A DNA stretch of 64,000 nucleotides. It comes from Verrucomicrobiota bacterium (lineage in GTDB: Bacteria > Verrucomicrobiota > Verrucomicrobiia > Limisphaerales > AAA164-E04). The translations under genes were made by a program, and so were the position numbers. Position 1 is the first letter of the stretch. Each line of letters opens with the position of its first letter. The notes under the pieces are model-generated. The model made no database searches. It was given only the letters and a program-made list of their open reading frames with translations, and was not told the origin of the DNA. The stretch spans positions 2,304,001 through 2,368,000 of the forward strand of contig CP170459.1 of the NCBI GenBank assembly GCA_047947115.1, read 5' to 3'. Positions 46,238 through 59,145 of the stretch are shown here, one piece after another.

Positions 46238-46301
46238 CCACGTTTTTGCAAACGCGGCTACTGGGGGGAAGGGTTGGCCACGTTTTTGTAGACGTGGCTA
46301 C
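46238..46301 (-). repeat. Two GTAG-REP (type B) copies
   Basis: CCACGTTTTTGCAAACGCGGCTAC (46238) and CCACGTTTTTGTAGACGTGGCTAC (46278). Confidence 0.88.
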
Positions 46302-49834: not shown

Positions 49835-51305
49835 GAACGGTGTCAAAAGAGTGAAGCCAAATTTGCCGCCTGAAACCGGGTTCCTGCGATGTGTTTCAGT
49901 TGTCTGATTCGGTTCTTTTCAAGGGTTTCAAAATGATTAAAATGCTCTAAAACAGAGAATTTAGCCGGTTTTTGTGCGATTAAAGTTGACTCTAGCGCTC
50001 TGACCCCAAAAAATTTTCATGCCAAGAGCTCTATTAACTGATAATAAGATATTTACAGCATTCTTCAAGCCTTTATTTGACGCCTTGAATCGAGCTGTTC
50101 ACACTCGCCAATGTAATGAATTACCCGACCAGCATTGGCTTGAATTAGGAGTCACCCGAATTCTTATGGAATCCCCCAGCGGCCGGGGGTTTCTCCAGCA
50201 ATACGGCCCCCACTTTCAGAGTGATATTTCTGTGGGGCTTTATTTCGAATCTCTCAAAAGTAACCGACGCCTCCTTCTTGCCGATGAATTAAATGATAGT
50301 ATTTGCGCTAAAGCAGCCAAAGAACTTAATGACCCTCTTCAGGATTTTGAGGAACTAAAAAAATATGACATCTATGCCGCTGATGGCCATTGGCATGGTG
50401 CTTCGGCTCATGAAGTACGCAAGAATGAAAAGAAATGGGCTCCCGGTTACTTCTACGCCCTGAATCTGAGATCCCATGCAATCAAGTTGCTGGATACAGC
50501 CGATGAGGTTCATCGTAAGCATGAGCATGACATGCGAGCCCTCAAAAGGATGGGTATCGAAACACTCAGGCAGGGTGCCAAGACGGGACGCAAAGTTCTC
50601 TATGTGTATGACTCTGCGTCCATCGATTTCAATGAGTGGGATTGGTGGAAATCACGAGGTGGAATTTATTTCGTTTCCCGCATGAAAGACGGAACTGCCT
50701 ATGAATGTCTGGATGAACTGGAAGTCGATCATGAAAATGGTATCAATCACGGAATCACGTCCGATGAAAAAATCATAGTCAATAACCAGAGCATTCTTCG
50801 ACGAATCGTATGTGTCGATCCGCAAACTGGGAAGGAACACGTTTTGATCACCAACCAATTGACGATTTCGCCAGGTTTGTTAGCACAGCTCTATCGGATG
50901 CGTTGGGATATTGAGAAGGTATTCGATGAGTTTAAAAATACACTTCAGGAGAAAAAGGCATGGGCCGGATCAGTCCGGGCCAAGAAGATTCAAGCCAACT
51001 TTCTTTGCCTGGCACATAACCTCTGTCTCTTGATGGAGCATGATTTGGAAAAGGATTACGGAGTGAGCAACGAAGCAGAAATTCGTCGACGTCAAATTCG
51101 CTTTGAAGCAATGAAAAACGCTGCCAAAGAAGCCGGGAGAAAATGGTCAACGGTGTACGAATGCGTCCAGCGCTACTCCAAGCGAAGCGTAAAGTTTATC
51201 CGGTGCTTGAGATCATTTTTCTTTTTAGAAAAGCCCCTAATTGACATGGCGGCTCATCTCATCCGTTTATATGCGAAGTTATGATTGACTTTTTTGACAC
51301 CGTTC
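49835..51305 (+). mobile_element. IS4-family insertion sequence, 1471 bp
   Basis: Terminal IRs GAACGGTGTCAAAAGAGT / ACTTTTTTGACACCGTTC; 8-bp TSD GGTTTCAA at 49827-49834 and 51306-51313. Confidence 0.93.
50019..51284 (+). CDS. IS4-family DDE transposase
   Basis: AADG, VYDS and YRMRWDIEKVFDEFK (YREK-type) motifs. Confidence 0.93.
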   Translation: MPRALLTDNKIFTAFFKPLFDALNRAVHTRQCNELPDQHWLELGVTRILMESPSGRGFLQQYGPHFQSDISVGLYFESLKSNRRLLLADELNDSICAKAAKELNDPLQDFEELKKYDIYAADGHWHGASAHEVRKNEKKWAPGYFYALNLRSHAIKLLDTADEVHRKHEHDMRALKRMGIETLRQGAKTGRKVLYVYDSASIDFNEWDWWKSRGGIYFVSRMKDGTAYECLDELEVDHENGINHGITSDEKIIVNNQSILRRIVCVDPQTGKEHVLITNQLTISPGLLAQLYRMRWDIEKVFDEFKNTLQEKKAWAGSVRAKKIQANFLCLAHNLCLLMEHDLEKDYGVSNEAEIRRRQIRFEAMKNAAKEAGRKWSTVYECVQRYSKRSVKFIRCLRSFFFLEKPLIDMAAHLIRLYAKL

Positions 51306-55161: not shown

Positions 55162-55359
55162 CATCCTTACGGCACAGTCACGATCGCCAGAGTGTGGCCG
55201 ATTTTATCTGGGTATTCATTTGAACCGGCAATCTTTTGATTTCAGCAGTCAGATTATCCTGAGTGATGCACGTAATGCATGTGAACTCAGTGAGAGCATT
55301 TTTTGACAATTGATTCTGATTTGATTGCTTTTGGTTATTTGATACAAGCCATTCATACC

Positions 55360-56859
55360 ATGAGCAAAATCACACGACGAAGGTTTATTACGGCGACCTC
55401 TTCATTGGCGCTTTTGCCATCCATAAACGGACAGGAATCCGAAGCTCTGACCGGTTACAGCCCGGGTAATGTCCTGAGCAAAATTGATGGATTGGATCTC
55501 CTGAATCTTTGGGGGAAACAGCCGGAGCACAATCAGCAGCTTTATAGTTTGATCGAGGCGGTCCTGTCGAAATCGACTCGGAACACGTTTGCCGATGTCA
55601 GCCGGGATCCAAAAGTGCTGCAGTTTTGTGAGCGGCATCGGATTCACCACCTCGGGGGCCCCATGTTGGGGTGTGTCACAACATCCGGAGCCAAGGTGTG
55701 GGTTCGAACCGTCAAGCCTTCCAACGTCGAGGTGCGTTTGAAAAAAGATGGGAAAGAAACGACCTACGGTCCGGTTCGGAGCAGCGAGGAAAGTGATCTT
55801 GTGGCTTGTGTTCCAGTGACCGGTCTTCAAGCGGGAACTTCCTATGGTTACCGGGTGTTTGTGGACGGTTCTTCAGTTTCCATTCCTCGAGATGCGAGCA
55901 TTACAACGGTACCGAACACAAATCGGTTGCGCCTGGCCTTCGGGACCTGTCCGCATCGCTGGGGCCTTGGCAACATGCAACAGGCCAGTAGAATTCTCAG
56001 CCGGAAACCTTCGGCGCTGCTGATGTATGGCGATCTTGGTGCGCAGGACAAAAATAATCATGTTGGCAAACATCGATGTGATTATCAGATCCGCGATTTT
56101 TACCCCGCTTGGCAAACTTTATCCGCCTCCATGCCCACTTATGCGACGTGGGATGATCACGACTATTTCGACAATGATCGGGCAGGGATTCCAAAAGGGT
56201 ATACAGATGACGATCGCAAGGCGGTGCGAACCGTGTTTAGTCAGGCTTGGAACAATCCAAGTTATGGCTTTAACGATGATCGAGGCGGTGTTTTCCTGCG
56301 CACGCGATTTGGTCCGTGCGATGTGATCATGCTCGATAACCGCTATTTCCGGACCGGAGAAGAACACGCTTTTCTGGGGAACGCTCAAATGGAGTGGCTC
56401 AAGGAACAATTGCTCGACTGCAAAGGGTCATTCATTTTGATCACGTGTGGGACGATGTGGACCGATCACGTCAGCAAAGGCAAGGATTCCTGGGGGCGAA
56501 CCGATCCTGAAGGTCGTGAACAATTGTTTCAGTTCATTGAAAAGCACCGCATCCCAGGTGTGCTTTTGCTTTCAGGGGATCGTCATGGGGCATGTGGATT
56601 TCGGATTCCACGCAAATCCGGGCATACGTTTTATGAAATTGAAGCCGCCACTCTGGGCGGGAGGAGTGGTCCAGCAGCCAGCGCTGCCGGTCACCCTGAT
56701 GTCTTGTATGCTTTCTCAGGGAAGTATGCTTATGGTGAGCTTAACTTCGACGCCACCAACGCGGACCCGACGGTTCATTACCGCCTGATTCATGAAAGCG
56801 GTGTCACATTGTATGAGTTGAAATTGACCCGAAGCCAACTAACTCCTCCAGCGTCGTAG
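55360..56859 (+). CDS. PhoD-like alkaline phosphatase/phosphodiesterase, Tat-exported
   Basis: TRRRF Tat motif, WDDHD, LDNRYFR, LGNAQMEWLKEQL, LSGDRH. Confidence 0.88.
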   Translation: MSKITRRRFITATSSLALLPSINGQESEALTGYSPGNVLSKIDGLDLLNLWGKQPEHNQQLYSLIEAVLSKSTRNTFADVSRDPKVLQFCERHRIHHLGGPMLGCVTTSGAKVWVRTVKPSNVEVRLKKDGKETTYGPVRSSEESDLVACVPVTGLQAGTSYGYRVFVDGSSVSIPRDASITTVPNTNRLRLAFGTCPHRWGLGNMQQASRILSRKPSALLMYGDLGAQDKNNHVGKHRCDYQIRDFYPAWQTLSASMPTYATWDDHDYFDNDRAGIPKGYTDDDRKAVRTVFSQAWNNPSYGFNDDRGGVFLRTRFGPCDVIMLDNRYFRTGEEHAFLGNAQMEWLKEQLLDCKGSFILITCGTMWTDHVSKGKDSWGRTDPEGREQLFQFIEKHRIPGVLLLSGDRHGACGFRIPRKSGHTFYEIEAATLGGRSGPAASAAGHPDVLYAFSGKYAYGELNFDATNADPTVHYRLIHESGVTLYELKLTRSQLTPPAS

Positions 56860-56872
56860 AAAGATGGGACAA

Positions 56873-57000
56873 GTAGCCGCCTTCGCCAGAAGGTGGAACA
56901 GCGTTTGCTTTGCGCAGTGGGGTGGGTTGGTTTTGAAAATGGGAGTCCACGTTTTTGCAAACGCGGCTACGTGGGTGTAGCCGCCTTCGCCAGAAGGTGG
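56873..57000. repeat. BIME unit left of RAYT: REP-A, spacer, inverted REP-B, REP-A
   Basis: GTAGCCGCCTTCGCCAGAAGGTGG at 56873 and 56977; CCACGTTTTTGCAAACGCGGCTAC at 56947. Confidence 0.92.
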
Positions 57001-57009
57001 ATGCGTTCT

Positions 57010-57561
57010 TCAAAGTTTTGAATAATAAATCTTCCAAAACCGTTCCCAGTAATCTTCATCCCTCAATGATACTTCTGGGTAACCCGGAATCATCGAATTC
57101 AGGAAAGTCCACTGATTCCAACATTCTACCAAACCCTTTCTGACTGGATTGTTCAGGACATAGGCTGCCACTTTTTGAAACGCATCTTTTTCGCGATCGT
57201 TGGGGCGTAGGACGTTGTCATAGGCTTGTTTTTGCCATGCATATCCATGCTTGCGGAGATGGGCATTGGTGTGTTTTCTCAGAAAACGGACCAGTAACTT
57301 TTGATCACAAGATTCATCCCAGCCAAGTAACAACAAATGCACATGGTCCGGCATAAGACAATAAGCAGGACAGGCGGCGCCGTATCTTCCAAGTGCGTGG
57401 AGGAGAACTTCTCGAAACCAGTTGTGGAAAGCAGCGTTCAGCCAGCCGGTTTTTCGGTGTTGCATGGAAAAATTCCAATGAACGAATGCGGGGCCTTGAT
57501 ATGCAGAGTTTGTTAAACGTGGGAGATTAGAATGTTTCATTCCGTATCTCACGTGCGGCAT
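57010..57561 (-). CDS. REP-associated tyrosine transposase (RAYT/TnpA-REP, HUH Y1)
   Basis: YCLMPDHVHLL (HUH), WQKQAYDNVLR, YVLNNPVRKGL; flanked by GTAG palindromes; start set at ATG 57561. Confidence 0.9.
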   Translation of the reverse strand: MPHVRYGMKHSNLPRLTNSAYQGPAFVHWNFSMQHRKTGWLNAAFHNWFREVLLHALGRYGAACPAYCLMPDHVHLLLLGWDESCDQKLLVRFLRKHTNAHLRKHGYAWQKQAYDNVLRPNDREKDAFQKVAAYVLNNPVRKGLVECWNQWTFLNSMIPGYPEVSLRDEDYWERFWKIYYSKL

Positions 57562-57600
57562 GGTAGATTGAGTTGAATGAATTTGCAAGGTTTTGGGAGT

Positions 57601-57936
57601 CCACGCTTTTGCAAGCACGGCTACGTTGGTGTAGCCGCCTTCGCCAGAAGGTGCAATAGCGTGTCCTTTGCGCGGAGGAGTGGGCTGAGTTTGAAAATGG
57701 GAGTCCACGTTTTTGCAAACGCGGTTACGTGGGTGTAGCCGCCTTCGCGAGAAGGTGGAACTGCGTGTGCTTTGCGCGGAGGGGTGGGTTGGTTTTGAAA
57801 ATGGGAGTCCACGCTTTTGCAAGCGCGGCTACGTGGGTGTAGCCGCCTTCGCAAGAAGGTGGAATTGCGTTTGATTTGCGCGGAGGGGTGGGTTGGTTTT
57901 GAAAATGGGAGTCCACGCTTTTGCAAGCGCGGCTAC
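57601..57936. repeat. Tandem BIME array with a 104-bp period
   Basis: Inverted REP-B at 57601, 57705, 57809, 57913; REP-A at 57631, 57735, 57839; near-identical spacers. Confidence 0.92.
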
Positions 57937-57957: not shown

Positions 57958-59145
57958 TCAATCGGCCTGCTTGTTCAACAGCCATTGGGGATGGATGCGA
58001 TAGTGTGCAATGCCTTTTCCATTCTCGGATTTTACGCTGCAGGAGACGTGGATCCATCCGTCATGCGTTTCAATCATGGAGGGGTATGAACCGTCCGATC
58101 GTTTTGAGATGACTCTTTTGTAAGCCCAGGTCGTTCCTTCGTTCAAGGAGAGAGCGATGGAAAGTTTCTCACGGCGTTCATCGGAATCATTGAATACCAT
58201 CACCCATCCCTCGGTATGTTTCAGGCGCAATACTTGCAGGCTGGCGCTGGGGTTGGGGATCTCGGTTTCCTGCAGGGCACTCCAGGTTTCACCCTGGTCC
58301 TTCGAAATGGATTGCTGGACCCGGTAAGGAGGGCGCCCGGTTTCGCGCAGGTAAGCGACGAGATCGCCGTTTTTCCTTTCAACGACCGACGGTTGGATGC
58401 CGGCGATACCGACCATGGGACCACTGGCGTGCCAGGTTTCCCCTTCGTCATCGGATAGTGCTGCCAGTCCCATGTTGTAACCATCGTTGTACAATGGCAG
58501 GAGGAGTCTTCCCGAAGAGAGCTTCACTGGATGATTGCGTGTCATCCATCCTTCCCGGCGTTTGACAGGATCTTTTGCTGCTTCGGTGATGAGCTGGTCA
58601 TAAGGACGAGCATACTCCGCCCACATGGATTCATCGAAACCGGTTGCTTGAAACCCACTGGCGACACGCTCCGGAAAGTCCGAACCGGGCTTGAGGAGGA
58701 TGATGTCCTGCCAGTTCCAATGAGGTGTCCCTTCTGCAAGGTAATCCTCGGAACGACGGTATTTAAGCACACTCGTTTCCCAGCGATTCGCGCGCACCAC
58801 GATCCACATCAGCCACAAGCGCTCTTTGGCGTCCAGAAATAAAATTGGATTACAATCGGGGAAGCCGGGTGTGTCTGCCATCAAGAATGGTTTACCCCAA
58901 GTTTCTGCGCCTTGGCGTAAGCGTGCGCCCATAATGCGAACGTCATCGGCTGTTCGTTCACCTGAGCCCTGGAACCAACAAGCGAGGAGATCTCCATTGG
59001 GTAATTCCACAAGACTGCTGGCATGGGCGTGTTCGGACTGCCAATTTAGGATCAAGAGTTCCTGAGGCCAGGAGGAATCTTCTCCCCAGGTGTTCAAAGC
59101 GCAATACATCAAGATCGAGGCAATATAAAATGTCATCAATCGCAT
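57958..59145 (-). CDS. BNR/Asp-box exo-sialidase-like protein
   Basis: Asp boxes SDDEGETW, SKDQGETW, SLNEGTTW; HASSLVELPNGDLLACWF; SYPS. Confidence 0.85.
   Translation of the reverse strand: MRLMTFYIASILMYCALNTWGEDSSWPQELLILNWQSEHAHASSLVELPNGDLLACWFQGSGERTADDVRIMGARLRQGAETWGKPFLMADTPGFPDCNPILFLDAKERLWLMWIVVRANRWETSVLKYRRSEDYLAEGTPHWNWQDIILLKPGSDFPERVASGFQATGFDESMWAEYARPYDQLITEAAKDPVKRREGWMTRNHPVKLSSGRLLLPLYNDGYNMGLAALSDDEGETWHASGPMVGIAGIQPSVVERKNGDLVAYLRETGRPPYRVQQSISKDQGETWSALQETEIPNPSASLQVLRLKHTEGWVMVFNDSDERREKLSIALSLNEGTTWAYKRVISKRSDGSYPSMIETHDGWIHVSCSVKSENGKGIAHYRIHPQWLLNKQAD

What the first reader, a model, noticed from the sequence alone, without database searches (positions are those of the whole stretch)
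56873..57936. RAYT gene sits in the spacer slot of a two-REP BIME array
Seen: the array reads [A-spacer-B'] [A-RAYT gene-B'] [A-spacer-B']x3 with a 104-bp period and GT(G/T)GGT linkers. The transposase gene therefore replaces the ~50-bp spacer of one unit. REP-A (GTAG CCGCCTTC-GCCA-GAAGGTGG) and REP-B (GTAG CCGCGTTT-GCAA-AAACGTGG) share the GTAG foot and outer stem but differ in the inner stem. Established: RAYT/TnpA-REP HUH enzymes recognise GTAG-hairpins and are best studied in Proteobacteria. Inference: this is an active REPtron in a PVC-like lineage with asymmetric left and right ends; the units look like non-autonomous deletion derivatives.
Basis: partly seen in the sequence, partly recalled or inferred. 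Interest (0 to 1): 0.7.

Follow-up and report, generated by a model that had tools for sequence, protein, structure and literature searches.

The report
Verrucomicrobial REPtron inside a REP array
A single-copy gene for a predicted single-strand-DNA cutting enzyme (RAYT) sits inside a tandem array of the short GTAG-tagged hairpin repeats that it likely spreads around the genome: a known kind of system (REPtron), here from a little-studied Verrucomicrobia/Planctomycetes branch.

Summary
The layout is as reported: ten REPs, 104-bp period, and an intact HUH/Y1 gene in one spacer slot. The protein is a RAYT, not IS200: Y127-x3-N131-P motif, nearest fold 4ER8, and a 100/99-supported PVC clade on the RAYT side of the tree. 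Its REP family has 102 exact-pattern copies here, 64 in the one congener with the orthologue, and 0-3 in 20 other family genomes.

A and B are two covarying variants of one REP family, not left and right ends. The congener has them swapped, and 50 of 65 classifiable clade loci have outward or tandem flanks. The 50-bp spacer occurs only here, so the units are locally amplified BIME modules. Their origin by deletion of the gene unit is unproven. Activity is not shown.

This layout was described by Nunvar 2010 and Ton-Hoang 2012. Less ordinary: the gene lies on opposite sides of the same neighbour in two congeners, and a PIN/RHH toxin-antitoxin-like pair fills a slot of another array. The scan noted similar REPtrons on other genomes.

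The parts
56873..56896 (+). REP, A variant (GTAG foot, 8-bp stem with one G.T pair, 4-nt loop)
56897..56946 (.). 50-bp spacer of unit 1; found only at this locus
56947..56970 (-). REP, B variant (inner stem GTTT)
56977..57000 (+). REP, A variant, 9 nt beyond the RAYT stop codon
57010..57552 (-). RAYT / TnpA-REP gene: 176 aa from ATG 57540, or 180 aa from the GTG at 57552 that the congener shares; H66-V-H68, Y127, N131-P132 (numbered from ATG 57540)
57560..57588 (-). Likely promoter: TTGCAA, 17 nt, TACCAT, 7 nt before the GTG (possible leaderless transcript). Inferred from conservation in G007 (TTGCAA-16-TACGAT-7-GTG); 8 of 12 consensus matches, below the scanner's threshold
   Evidence: one search found no site
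57601..57624 (-). REP, B variant (GCTT, one stem change), 48 nt upstream of the GTG
57631..57728 (.). Unit 3: A (57631-57654), spacer, B' (57705-57728, foot GTAA); the most diverged unit
57735..57832 (.). Unit 4: A (57735-57758), spacer, B' (57809-57832)
57839..57936 (.). Unit 5: A (57839-57862), spacer, B' (57913-57936)
55303..56859 (+). Flanking PhoD-like phosphatase gene, convergent on the array (context)
57958..59145 (-). Flanking BNR-repeat (sialidase-like) gene, upstream of the array; downstream of the RAYT orthologue in G007 (context)
35513..36223 (+). Tandem cluster of six REPs of the same family (B-like), next to tRNA-SeC
46238..46301 (-). Two more REPs of the same family (one degenerate)

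Best explanation
This is a REPtron: a single-copy, likely vertically inherited RAYT gene inside a locally amplified array of two-REP (BIME-2-like) modules, whose enzyme would bind the GTAG hairpin on single-stranded DNA and would cut and rejoin nearby, likely seeding REPs across the genome and growing arrays in place. Shown: the anatomy, the family placement, REP enrichment, REP-RAYT co-occurrence, covarying stems and locus-specific spacers. Inferred from E. coli, Stenotrophomonas and Marinomonas TnpA-REP: strand-specific binding of REP but not its complement, cleavage at CT (or CA) 5' or 3' of the hairpin through Y127, strand transfer, and rolling-circle-like local amplification. A lies on one strand and B on the other, so they cannot be the two ends of one single-stranded intermediate. 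Their stem difference likely persists because a heterodimer avoids a long perfect inverted repeat. The gene is simply one of the sequences that can lie between REPs.
For: HUH, Y127, N131, Q103 and D108 are invariant in 51 of 51 aligned proteins; R112 in 47 of 51. These match the class 2 Y---NP signature and the W94/Q95/E100/R104 positions of Quentin 2018 (PMC6006769, passages and section 12). NF047646 E=6.5e-15 against IS200 NF033573 E=0.035. 4ER8 is the best match by profile (4e-8) and by fold (TM 0.67, rmsd 2.4, against TM 0.45-0.49 for IS200/IS605 enzymes; model pLDDT 95.5). Tree of 68 rows: clade 100/99, IS200 split 99/98. No second copy in the genome. REPs: 102 exact and 128 relaxed hits in 35-38 clusters, controls 6 and 3. 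They occur in numbers only in the 2 of 22 family genomes with the orthologue. The same holds in three more clade members: 24, 41 and 17 exact copies in their own genome, 0 in the other four tested. Stem positions 9/20 are Watson-Crick in 35 of 38 distinct REPs, using all four pair types. REP folds at -6.4 to -6.6 kcal/mol, its complement at -3.5 to -3.6; the A-spacer-B' unit at -16.3, a homodimer at -34.2. Inverted neighbours differ in inner stem in 27 of 28 pairs (9 clusters; the exception is an overlapping self-match), while tandem neighbours are alike in 44 of 59. The gene diverged from G007 like its neighbours (75.6% nt against 77.3% and 83.5%), with dN 0.12 and saturated dS over codons 1-120.
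Against: No biochemical or in vivo activity was tested. The protein is under NF047646's curated cut-off (55.3 of 80 bits) and only 23% identical to E. coli RayT over 107 aa, so cleavage rules are borrowed from distant groups. The congener keeps 64 REPs although its orthologue is frameshifted in 4 of 4 loci seen, so REP abundance does not prove present activity. Local spacers have drifted to 82-94% identity, so the array is not freshly made. Two genomes are a single co-occurrence event within this family, and most genomes lacking REPs are incomplete MAGs. Heterodimers in 9 of 9 clusters would also be fairly likely under random pairing of variants.
Confidence: 0.85

Rival explanations
1. An autonomous transposon with A and B as asymmetric ends, and the 104-bp units as its non-autonomous deletion derivatives.
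For: The gene interval and the spacers share the 7 bases next to B exactly, and a short gapped match next to A. The spacer aligns loosely with the RAYT promoter region, best with that of G007 (shuffle p 0.012-0.043 without the first 7 nt). Two RAYT copies 82% identical over 123 aa lie at unrelated sites of one MAG, with shared REP arrays (L023, L026).
Against: Single copy. The spacer is found nowhere else. A and B are swapped in G007. Orientation class needs 22 changes on a 65-row tree. Both ends of the gene interval match one spacer in 1 of 62 loci. Unrelated REP flanks of the same genome score as high against the promoter region (up to 32.5 and 38, against 20.5-28.5 for the spacers). TnpA-REP binds REP and not iREP (PMC8266576, PMC3333891; passages).
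Confidence: 0.07
2. A genuine REPtron by origin, now inactive or silent: the array is a relic, and unit number changes by ordinary recombination or slippage between 104-bp direct repeats.
For: Spacers have drifted and three REPs near the gene are mutated. The congener's copy is frameshifted. The 312-bp shorter allele is an exact loss of three periods, as homologous recombination would give. RNA contigs could not show expression.
Against: The frame is intact in the window and in a 98% identical relative (P0003). No indel was seen in four metagenome runs. The N-terminal two thirds show purifying selection. Many REP copies are identical (18, 10, 8 and 8 copies of four variants).
Confidence: 0.25
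3. An IS200/IS605-family TnpA with its own ends that happened to insert into a REP array.
For: The only Pfam hit is Y1_Tnp, at its cut-off. IS200/IS605 structures also match the fold.
Against: Y-x3-N-P instead of Y-x3-Q; RAYT side of the tree; IS200 model E=0.035; no TnpB and no second copy. Relatives at about 50% identity each have their own GTAG hairpins, 3.4 per kb near the gene against 0.16 per kb further off.
Confidence: 0.01

Closest known systems
E. coli K-12 REPtron (rayT/yafM, TnpA-REP, PDB 4ER8; RAYT group 2 = subclass 2.2) with BIME-2 arrays
   Same: Single-copy Y1/HUH gene between two different inverted REPs, with tandem heterodimer modules on both sides. Units are conserved within a locus and vary in number between strains (PMC2817692, PMC3333891; passages read). 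Closest solved fold.
   Different: 23% identity over 107 aa. The REP is 24 nt with an 8-bp stem, one G.T pair and a 4-nt loop, with no AA/GC-type bulge. The C-terminal tail is different (P-G-Y-P ... W-x3-W helix). About 100-130 copies against about 600.
Group 3 / subclass 2.5 REPtrons (Stenotrophomonas Sm, Marinomonas Mb, Pseudomonas REPINs)
   Same: Short hairpins (Sm: 8-bp stem, 3-nt loop), D at the E100 position (D108, 51 of 51), several RAYT-REP pairs per genome (PMC8266576, PMC6006769; passages).
   Different: There is no dispersed doublet with a conserved spacer here, and this clade has a long C-terminal extension. No group 3 sequence was in my tree, so the relationship is untested.
GTAG-17 to GTAG-21 families of Opitutus terrae and Rhodopirellula baltica (Di Nocera 2013, PMC3733652)
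   Same: GTAG REPs and REPtrons in PVC bacteria; heterodimers and variable REPtron layouts are already described (passages, section 16). A GTAG-21 peptide in supplement 3, SRIRQNS, is nearly what the L070 REP encodes (SRIRENS, my translation), so this REP type was likely catalogued.
   Different: The window's own CCGC...GTGG family and this RAYT clade were not identified in the text or the four readable supplements. Figure 1, file S4 (list of REPtrons) and S5.doc could not be seen and may hold clade members.
IS200/IS605 TnpA (IS608, ISDra2)
   Same: HUH/Y1 fold and hairpin recognition on single-stranded DNA.
   Different: Y-x3-Q motif, two ends on one strand, multi-copy; separate branch (99/98).

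Membership tests
RAYT / TnpA-REP (class 2 TnpA-Y1), REPtron | HUH plus catalytic Y with Y-x3-N-P signature | tested here: met
   H66, H68, Y127, N131 in 51 of 51; P132 in 50 of 51
RAYT / TnpA-REP (class 2 TnpA-Y1), REPtron | Conserved GTAG-contact region (E. coli W94, Q95, E100, R104) | tested here: met
   W102 36/51, Q103 51/51, D108 51/51, R112 47/51; aligned to 4ER8
RAYT / TnpA-REP (class 2 TnpA-Y1), REPtron | Groups with RAYTs, not IS200, in phylogeny and fold | tested here: met
RAYT / TnpA-REP (class 2 TnpA-Y1), REPtron | Single copy, flanked by inverted GTAG hairpins | tested here: met
   other Y1 genes of the genome are at most 34% identical
RAYT / TnpA-REP (class 2 TnpA-Y1), REPtron | Cognate REPs abundant and mostly extragenic | tested here: met
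   102 exact and 128 relaxed hits; 2 of 38 clusters wholly inside ORF cores that cover 78% of the genome
RAYT / TnpA-REP (class 2 TnpA-Y1), REPtron | GTAG-dependent ssDNA cleavage and strand transfer | not testable with these tools
   needs purified protein
NCBIfam NF047646 equivalog | Score over the 80-bit cut-off | tested here: not met
   55.3 bits; not filed under this model
Named RAYT group or subclass (Bertels groups 1-5; Quentin 2.1-2.8) | Falls inside a named subclass | tested here: inconclusive
   Forms its own 100/99 clade; E. coli RayT was the only named reference. Quentin Table S1 has no row for Oter, Rbal, GTAGCGGAA, GTAGCTAC or GTAGCCAC (part 1 of 7 read, the rest term-searched)
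BIME-2 / atypical BIME | Tandem modules of two different inverted REPs, conserved within a locus, unrelated between loci | tested here: met
   across 14 clusters with inter-REP segments of 25-800 bp, one pair of clusters shares sequence
BIME-2 / atypical BIME | Unit number varies between strains | tested here: inconclusive
   One contig in 1 of 4 DNA runs skips 312 bp (three units), with near-zero depth over unit 3; an assembly effect is not fully excluded
REPIN / MITE-like dispersed doublet | REP-spacer-REP unit repeated at distant sites | tested here: not met
   Spacer hits outside the locus have E of 0.15 or more
Deletion derivative of the gene unit | Spacer homologous to both ends of the gene interval | tested here: inconclusive
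   7 bp exact on the B side, 1 bp ungapped on the A side; shuffle p 0.01-0.5; natural controls score as high
IS200/IS605 TnpA | Y-x3-Q motif, NF033573 cut-off, multiple copies | tested here: not met

The most novel reading that the evidence does not exclude
In this PVC clade the RAYT gene is itself slowly mobile cargo: it moves between REP slots by the same cut-and-join reaction that builds the arrays, and REP arrays act as cassette sites that also take up other genes. Support: the gene lies upstream of the BNR gene in G007 and downstream of it here, where G007 has a gene-less B/A' doublet at the matching place. Flank orientation switches at least 22 times among 65 loci. One MAG holds two 82%-identical REP-flanked copies at unrelated sites. 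A PIN/RHH toxin-antitoxin-like pair fills one slot of another array of this REP family. Corneloup 2021 states that there is no evidence of tnpA-REP mobility.
Probability: 0.3. Interest if true: 0.6.

Novelty: new member of a known kind. Interest (0 to 1): 0.3.

Why it matters
The locus itself is a textbook REPtron. Its value is as an entry to a distinct RAYT clade of Verrucomicrobia and Planctomycetes (at least 512 GTDB loci; 182 clusters at 50% identity with E up to 1e-30) that scores under the NCBI model's cut-off and for which my four paper searches found no biochemistry. Its compact REPs, with natural covarying variants, would make recognition rules easy to test. The two-congener rearrangement bears on the open question of whether RAYT genes ever move and how BIMEs capture genes.

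Tried and rejected
A and B as distinct families or ends: rejected. Dispersed 104-bp unit: none; the other array with a 104-bp period (G000 4215643) is tandem and unrelated. Spacer derived from the RAYT promoter or coding sequence: borderline and matched by natural controls; not claimed. A general 'gene replaces a spacer' rule: both-end match in 1 of 62 loci. Promoter scan: no site at threshold. Expression: four RNA runs are held as contigs that cover flanks and gene alike, so nothing follows. Excision circles: no such joint in four DNA runs; contigs drop rare forms. Direction of the gene-order change: no outgroup, since no other family genome holds close orthologues of both neighbours. REP enrichment near the gene is clear in G007 (11 of 64 hits in a 47.7-kb contig, 0.56 expected), weak in G000 (2 other clusters within 25 kb, P=0.03) and absent at 500 kb (7 against 6.2). 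No fixed cleavage dinucleotide next to the REPs: flanks are only C/A-rich. Plasmids: 3 weak matches, none of this clade. One search used a B probe shifted by one base and a detector that missed REPs with a terminal mismatch; replace them. Left out of the orientation count: L104, L105 and L114 (same as L017), L107, L108 and L111 (duplicates) and L113 (partial). Of 86 loci scored, 17 had no REP by the detector (most show bulged GTAG hairpins by eye) and 4 had REPs on one side only. Tandem calls may include missed degenerate REPs. Paper searches. Scan look-up by sequence: nothing.

Full report
Observation. The array is as described. Five + strand REPs (56873, 56977, 57631, 57735, 57839) alternate with five - strand REPs (56947, 57601, 57705, 57809, 57913), with 50-bp spacers, 6-bp GT(G/T)GGT linkers and a 104-bp period. 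The second interval holds a - strand gene instead of a spacer. It has 176 codons from ATG 57540. An in-frame GTG at 57552 is shared with the congener G007 and lies 7 nt after a TTGCAA-17-TACCAT motif that G007 also keeps. That suggests a leaderless transcript, but the promoter scan found nothing at its threshold.

The protein. Pfam gives Y1_Tnp at its cut-off. NCBIfam gives REP_Tyr_transpos E=6.5e-15, but 55.3 bits against a cut-off of 80, and IS200 E=0.035. In 51 aligned relatives the HUH, Y127, N131, Q103 and D108 are invariant; this is the class 2 Y---NP signature and the GTAG-contact region described by Quentin 2018 (PMC6006769; passages and section 12 read). The model (pLDDT 95.5) matches E. 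coli TnpA-REP 4ER8 best (TM 0.67, rmsd 2.4), ahead of IS200/IS605 enzymes (TM 0.45-0.49). A tree of 68 proteins held the window's protein, 26 of the 80 GTDB relatives, 29 of 30 NF047646 loci, E. coli RayT, 7 IS200 and 4 paralogues (three loci were dropped for lack of a located HUH). It puts the protein in a clade at 100/99, with IS200 split off at 99/98. Of the 80 best loci, 78 carry PVC names. I did not test the host's own taxonomy. No named subclass could be assigned.

The repeats. A and B belong to one family, GTAG-CCGC-N4-loop-N4'-GYGG: 102 exact-pattern hits in 35 clusters, with 8 exact A and 8 exact B copies, and a third variant the commonest at 18. A relaxed search gives 128 hits in 38 clusters against 3 in the reversed genome. 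The inner stem covaries, while the G.T pair at stem position 3 is kept in 37 of 38 distinct sequences. This makes the REP strand fold about 3 kcal/mol better than its complement. Among 22 family genomes, only G000 (102) and G007 (64) carry the family; the others have 0-3. The same two are the only ones with the orthologue. Three other clade members show the same private enrichment. A second REP family (109 exact hits, control 0) flanks a different RAYT at G000 5390977-5391372, so the genome has at least two REPtrons.

Are A and B ends? No. In G007 the A-like REP is upstream and the B-like REP downstream, the reverse of the window. Across 86 loci, the nearest REPs point inward in 15, outward in 25 and in tandem in 25; 4 have REPs on one side and 17 none by the detector. 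These classes need 22 changes on a 65-row tree (shuffled mean 30, so some clustering). Different stems on the two sides are the rule: 36 of 40 inverted flanks in the clade and 27 of 28 inverted neighbours in this genome. Di Nocera 2013 (PMC3733652; passages, section 16, supplement searches) describes such heterodimers and proposes that they escape hairpin removal; the folding gap here (-16.3 against -34.2 kcal/mol for a homodimer) fits that. TnpA-REP binds REP but not iREP (PMC3333891, passages; PMC8266576, part 1 of 7 and passages), so A and B would be engaged on different strands.

Are the units deletion derivatives? The spacer exists only here, and spacers of different clusters are unrelated except for one pair. 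The units are therefore local amplifications, as Ton-Hoang 2012 describes for BIME-2. Spacer and gene interval share 7 bases next to B, and the spacer resembles the RAYT promoter region, but p-values span 0.01-0.5 and unrelated REP flanks score as high. Both-end matches occur in 1 of 62 loci. A common origin is possible, but the direction (gene lost or gene gained) is open. G007 has a gene-less B/A' doublet right after the BNR gene, where the window has its array.

Activity and mobility. The frame is intact in the window and in a 98% identical relative, and four metagenome runs show substitutions but no indel. dN is 0.12 against saturated dS. One run has a contig that skips exactly three units, with almost no depth over unit 3. 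Against recent activity: spacers at 82-94% identity, three mutated REPs, and a frameshifted orthologue in G007 (4 of 4 loci) that still has 64 REPs. RNA contigs were uninformative. The gene diverged like its neighbours, which fits vertical descent, and six other clade loci share one upstream neighbour. Yet the order differs: RAYT, BNR, ThuA, PhoD in G007 against BNR, RAYT, PhoD here. L023 and L026 are two copies in one MAG whose homology is limited to the gene and its REP arrays (binning error not excluded). A PIN-domain gene and an RHH gene fill one slot of a 187-bp-period array of the same REP family (the RHH hit is under its cut-off). Duplication followed by loss explains the swap equally well, and no outgroup polarises it.

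Comparison and verdict. Nunvar 2010 (PMC2817692; abstract and passages) already reports rayt genes between inverted, sometimes dimorphic REPs, a third of them inside BIMEs, and proposes BIMEs as non-autonomous elements. Ton-Hoang 2012 adds local amplification and gene capture, and argues that REPtrons do not transpose as a unit. Bertels 2017 (PMC5581495; passages) shows single-copy, mostly vertical inheritance. GTAG REPs in O. terrae and R. baltica are in Di Nocera 2013, and GTAG-21 likely belongs to this REP type (my inference from an encoded peptide). Four searches found no paper on this clade, but Di Nocera's Figure 1, S4 and S5 and Quentin's figures could not be seen. It works like, and is, a REPtron; it is not filed under NF047646 or groups 2 or 3. 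New member of a known kind; interest 0.3.

Noticed in passing
G000:C1:1754636-1756542 (L202:591-1222): A PIN-domain gene and an RHH gene (VapBC-like toxin-antitoxin pair) fill one interval of a tandem, 187-bp-period array of the same REP family, next to a paralogue of the BNR gene.
   Followed up: partly
G000:C1:5390730-5391645 (L006): A second REPtron: another RAYT with its own GTAG-GG family (109 exact hits, long alternating arrays such as 5600378-5601672). One cluster (1726954-1727301) mixes both families.
   Followed up: partly
G007:C38:19685-22564 (L017, L103): The orthologue is frameshifted after about codon 120 in 4 of 4 loci and lies upstream of the BNR gene. REPs separate each gene of the neighbourhood, and 11 of 64 genome hits fall in this 47.7-kb contig.
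   Followed up: yes
G000:C1:4303687-4304140, 4653846-4654109, 4215643-4216601: Head-to-tail arrays of single REPs (periods 43, 40 and 104 bp; 7-11 copies) that could be mistaken for CRISPR-like repeats.
   Followed up: partly
window 35513-36435: Six tandem B-like REPs around a 546-bp AT-richer interval, just before tRNA-SeC.
   Followed up: no
L023 and L026: Two RAYT copies, 82% identical over 123 aa, in one MAG at unrelated sites; homology is limited to the gene and its REP arrays.
   Followed up: partly
L031, L055, L060, L061, L086, L092: Six loci (five titled Opitutaceae or its genus Opitutus) share the same upstream gene and carry bulged GTAG hairpins that my 8-bp-stem detector missed.
   Followed up: no
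P0135, P0139, P0140, P0158, P0164, P0176: Clade members with low-complexity in-frame inserts just before the WQ motif, possibly REP insertions as reported for subclass 2.4; DNA not seen.
   Followed up: no
16 of 62 loci, e.g. L025, L047, L058, L106: The first in-frame stop after the aligned RAYT region ends at the last base of the downstream REP's GTAG foot, i.e. is its TAG; not tested against chance.
   Followed up: no
window 50019-51284: A DDE_Tnp_1 (IS4-like) transposase gene.
   Followed up: no
G000:C1:1066077, 776080, 385267, 1508070, 2128346: Five more Y1 genes: three in frames of about 350 aa, one short RAYT-like and one IS200-like; none is next to this REP family.
   Followed up: partly
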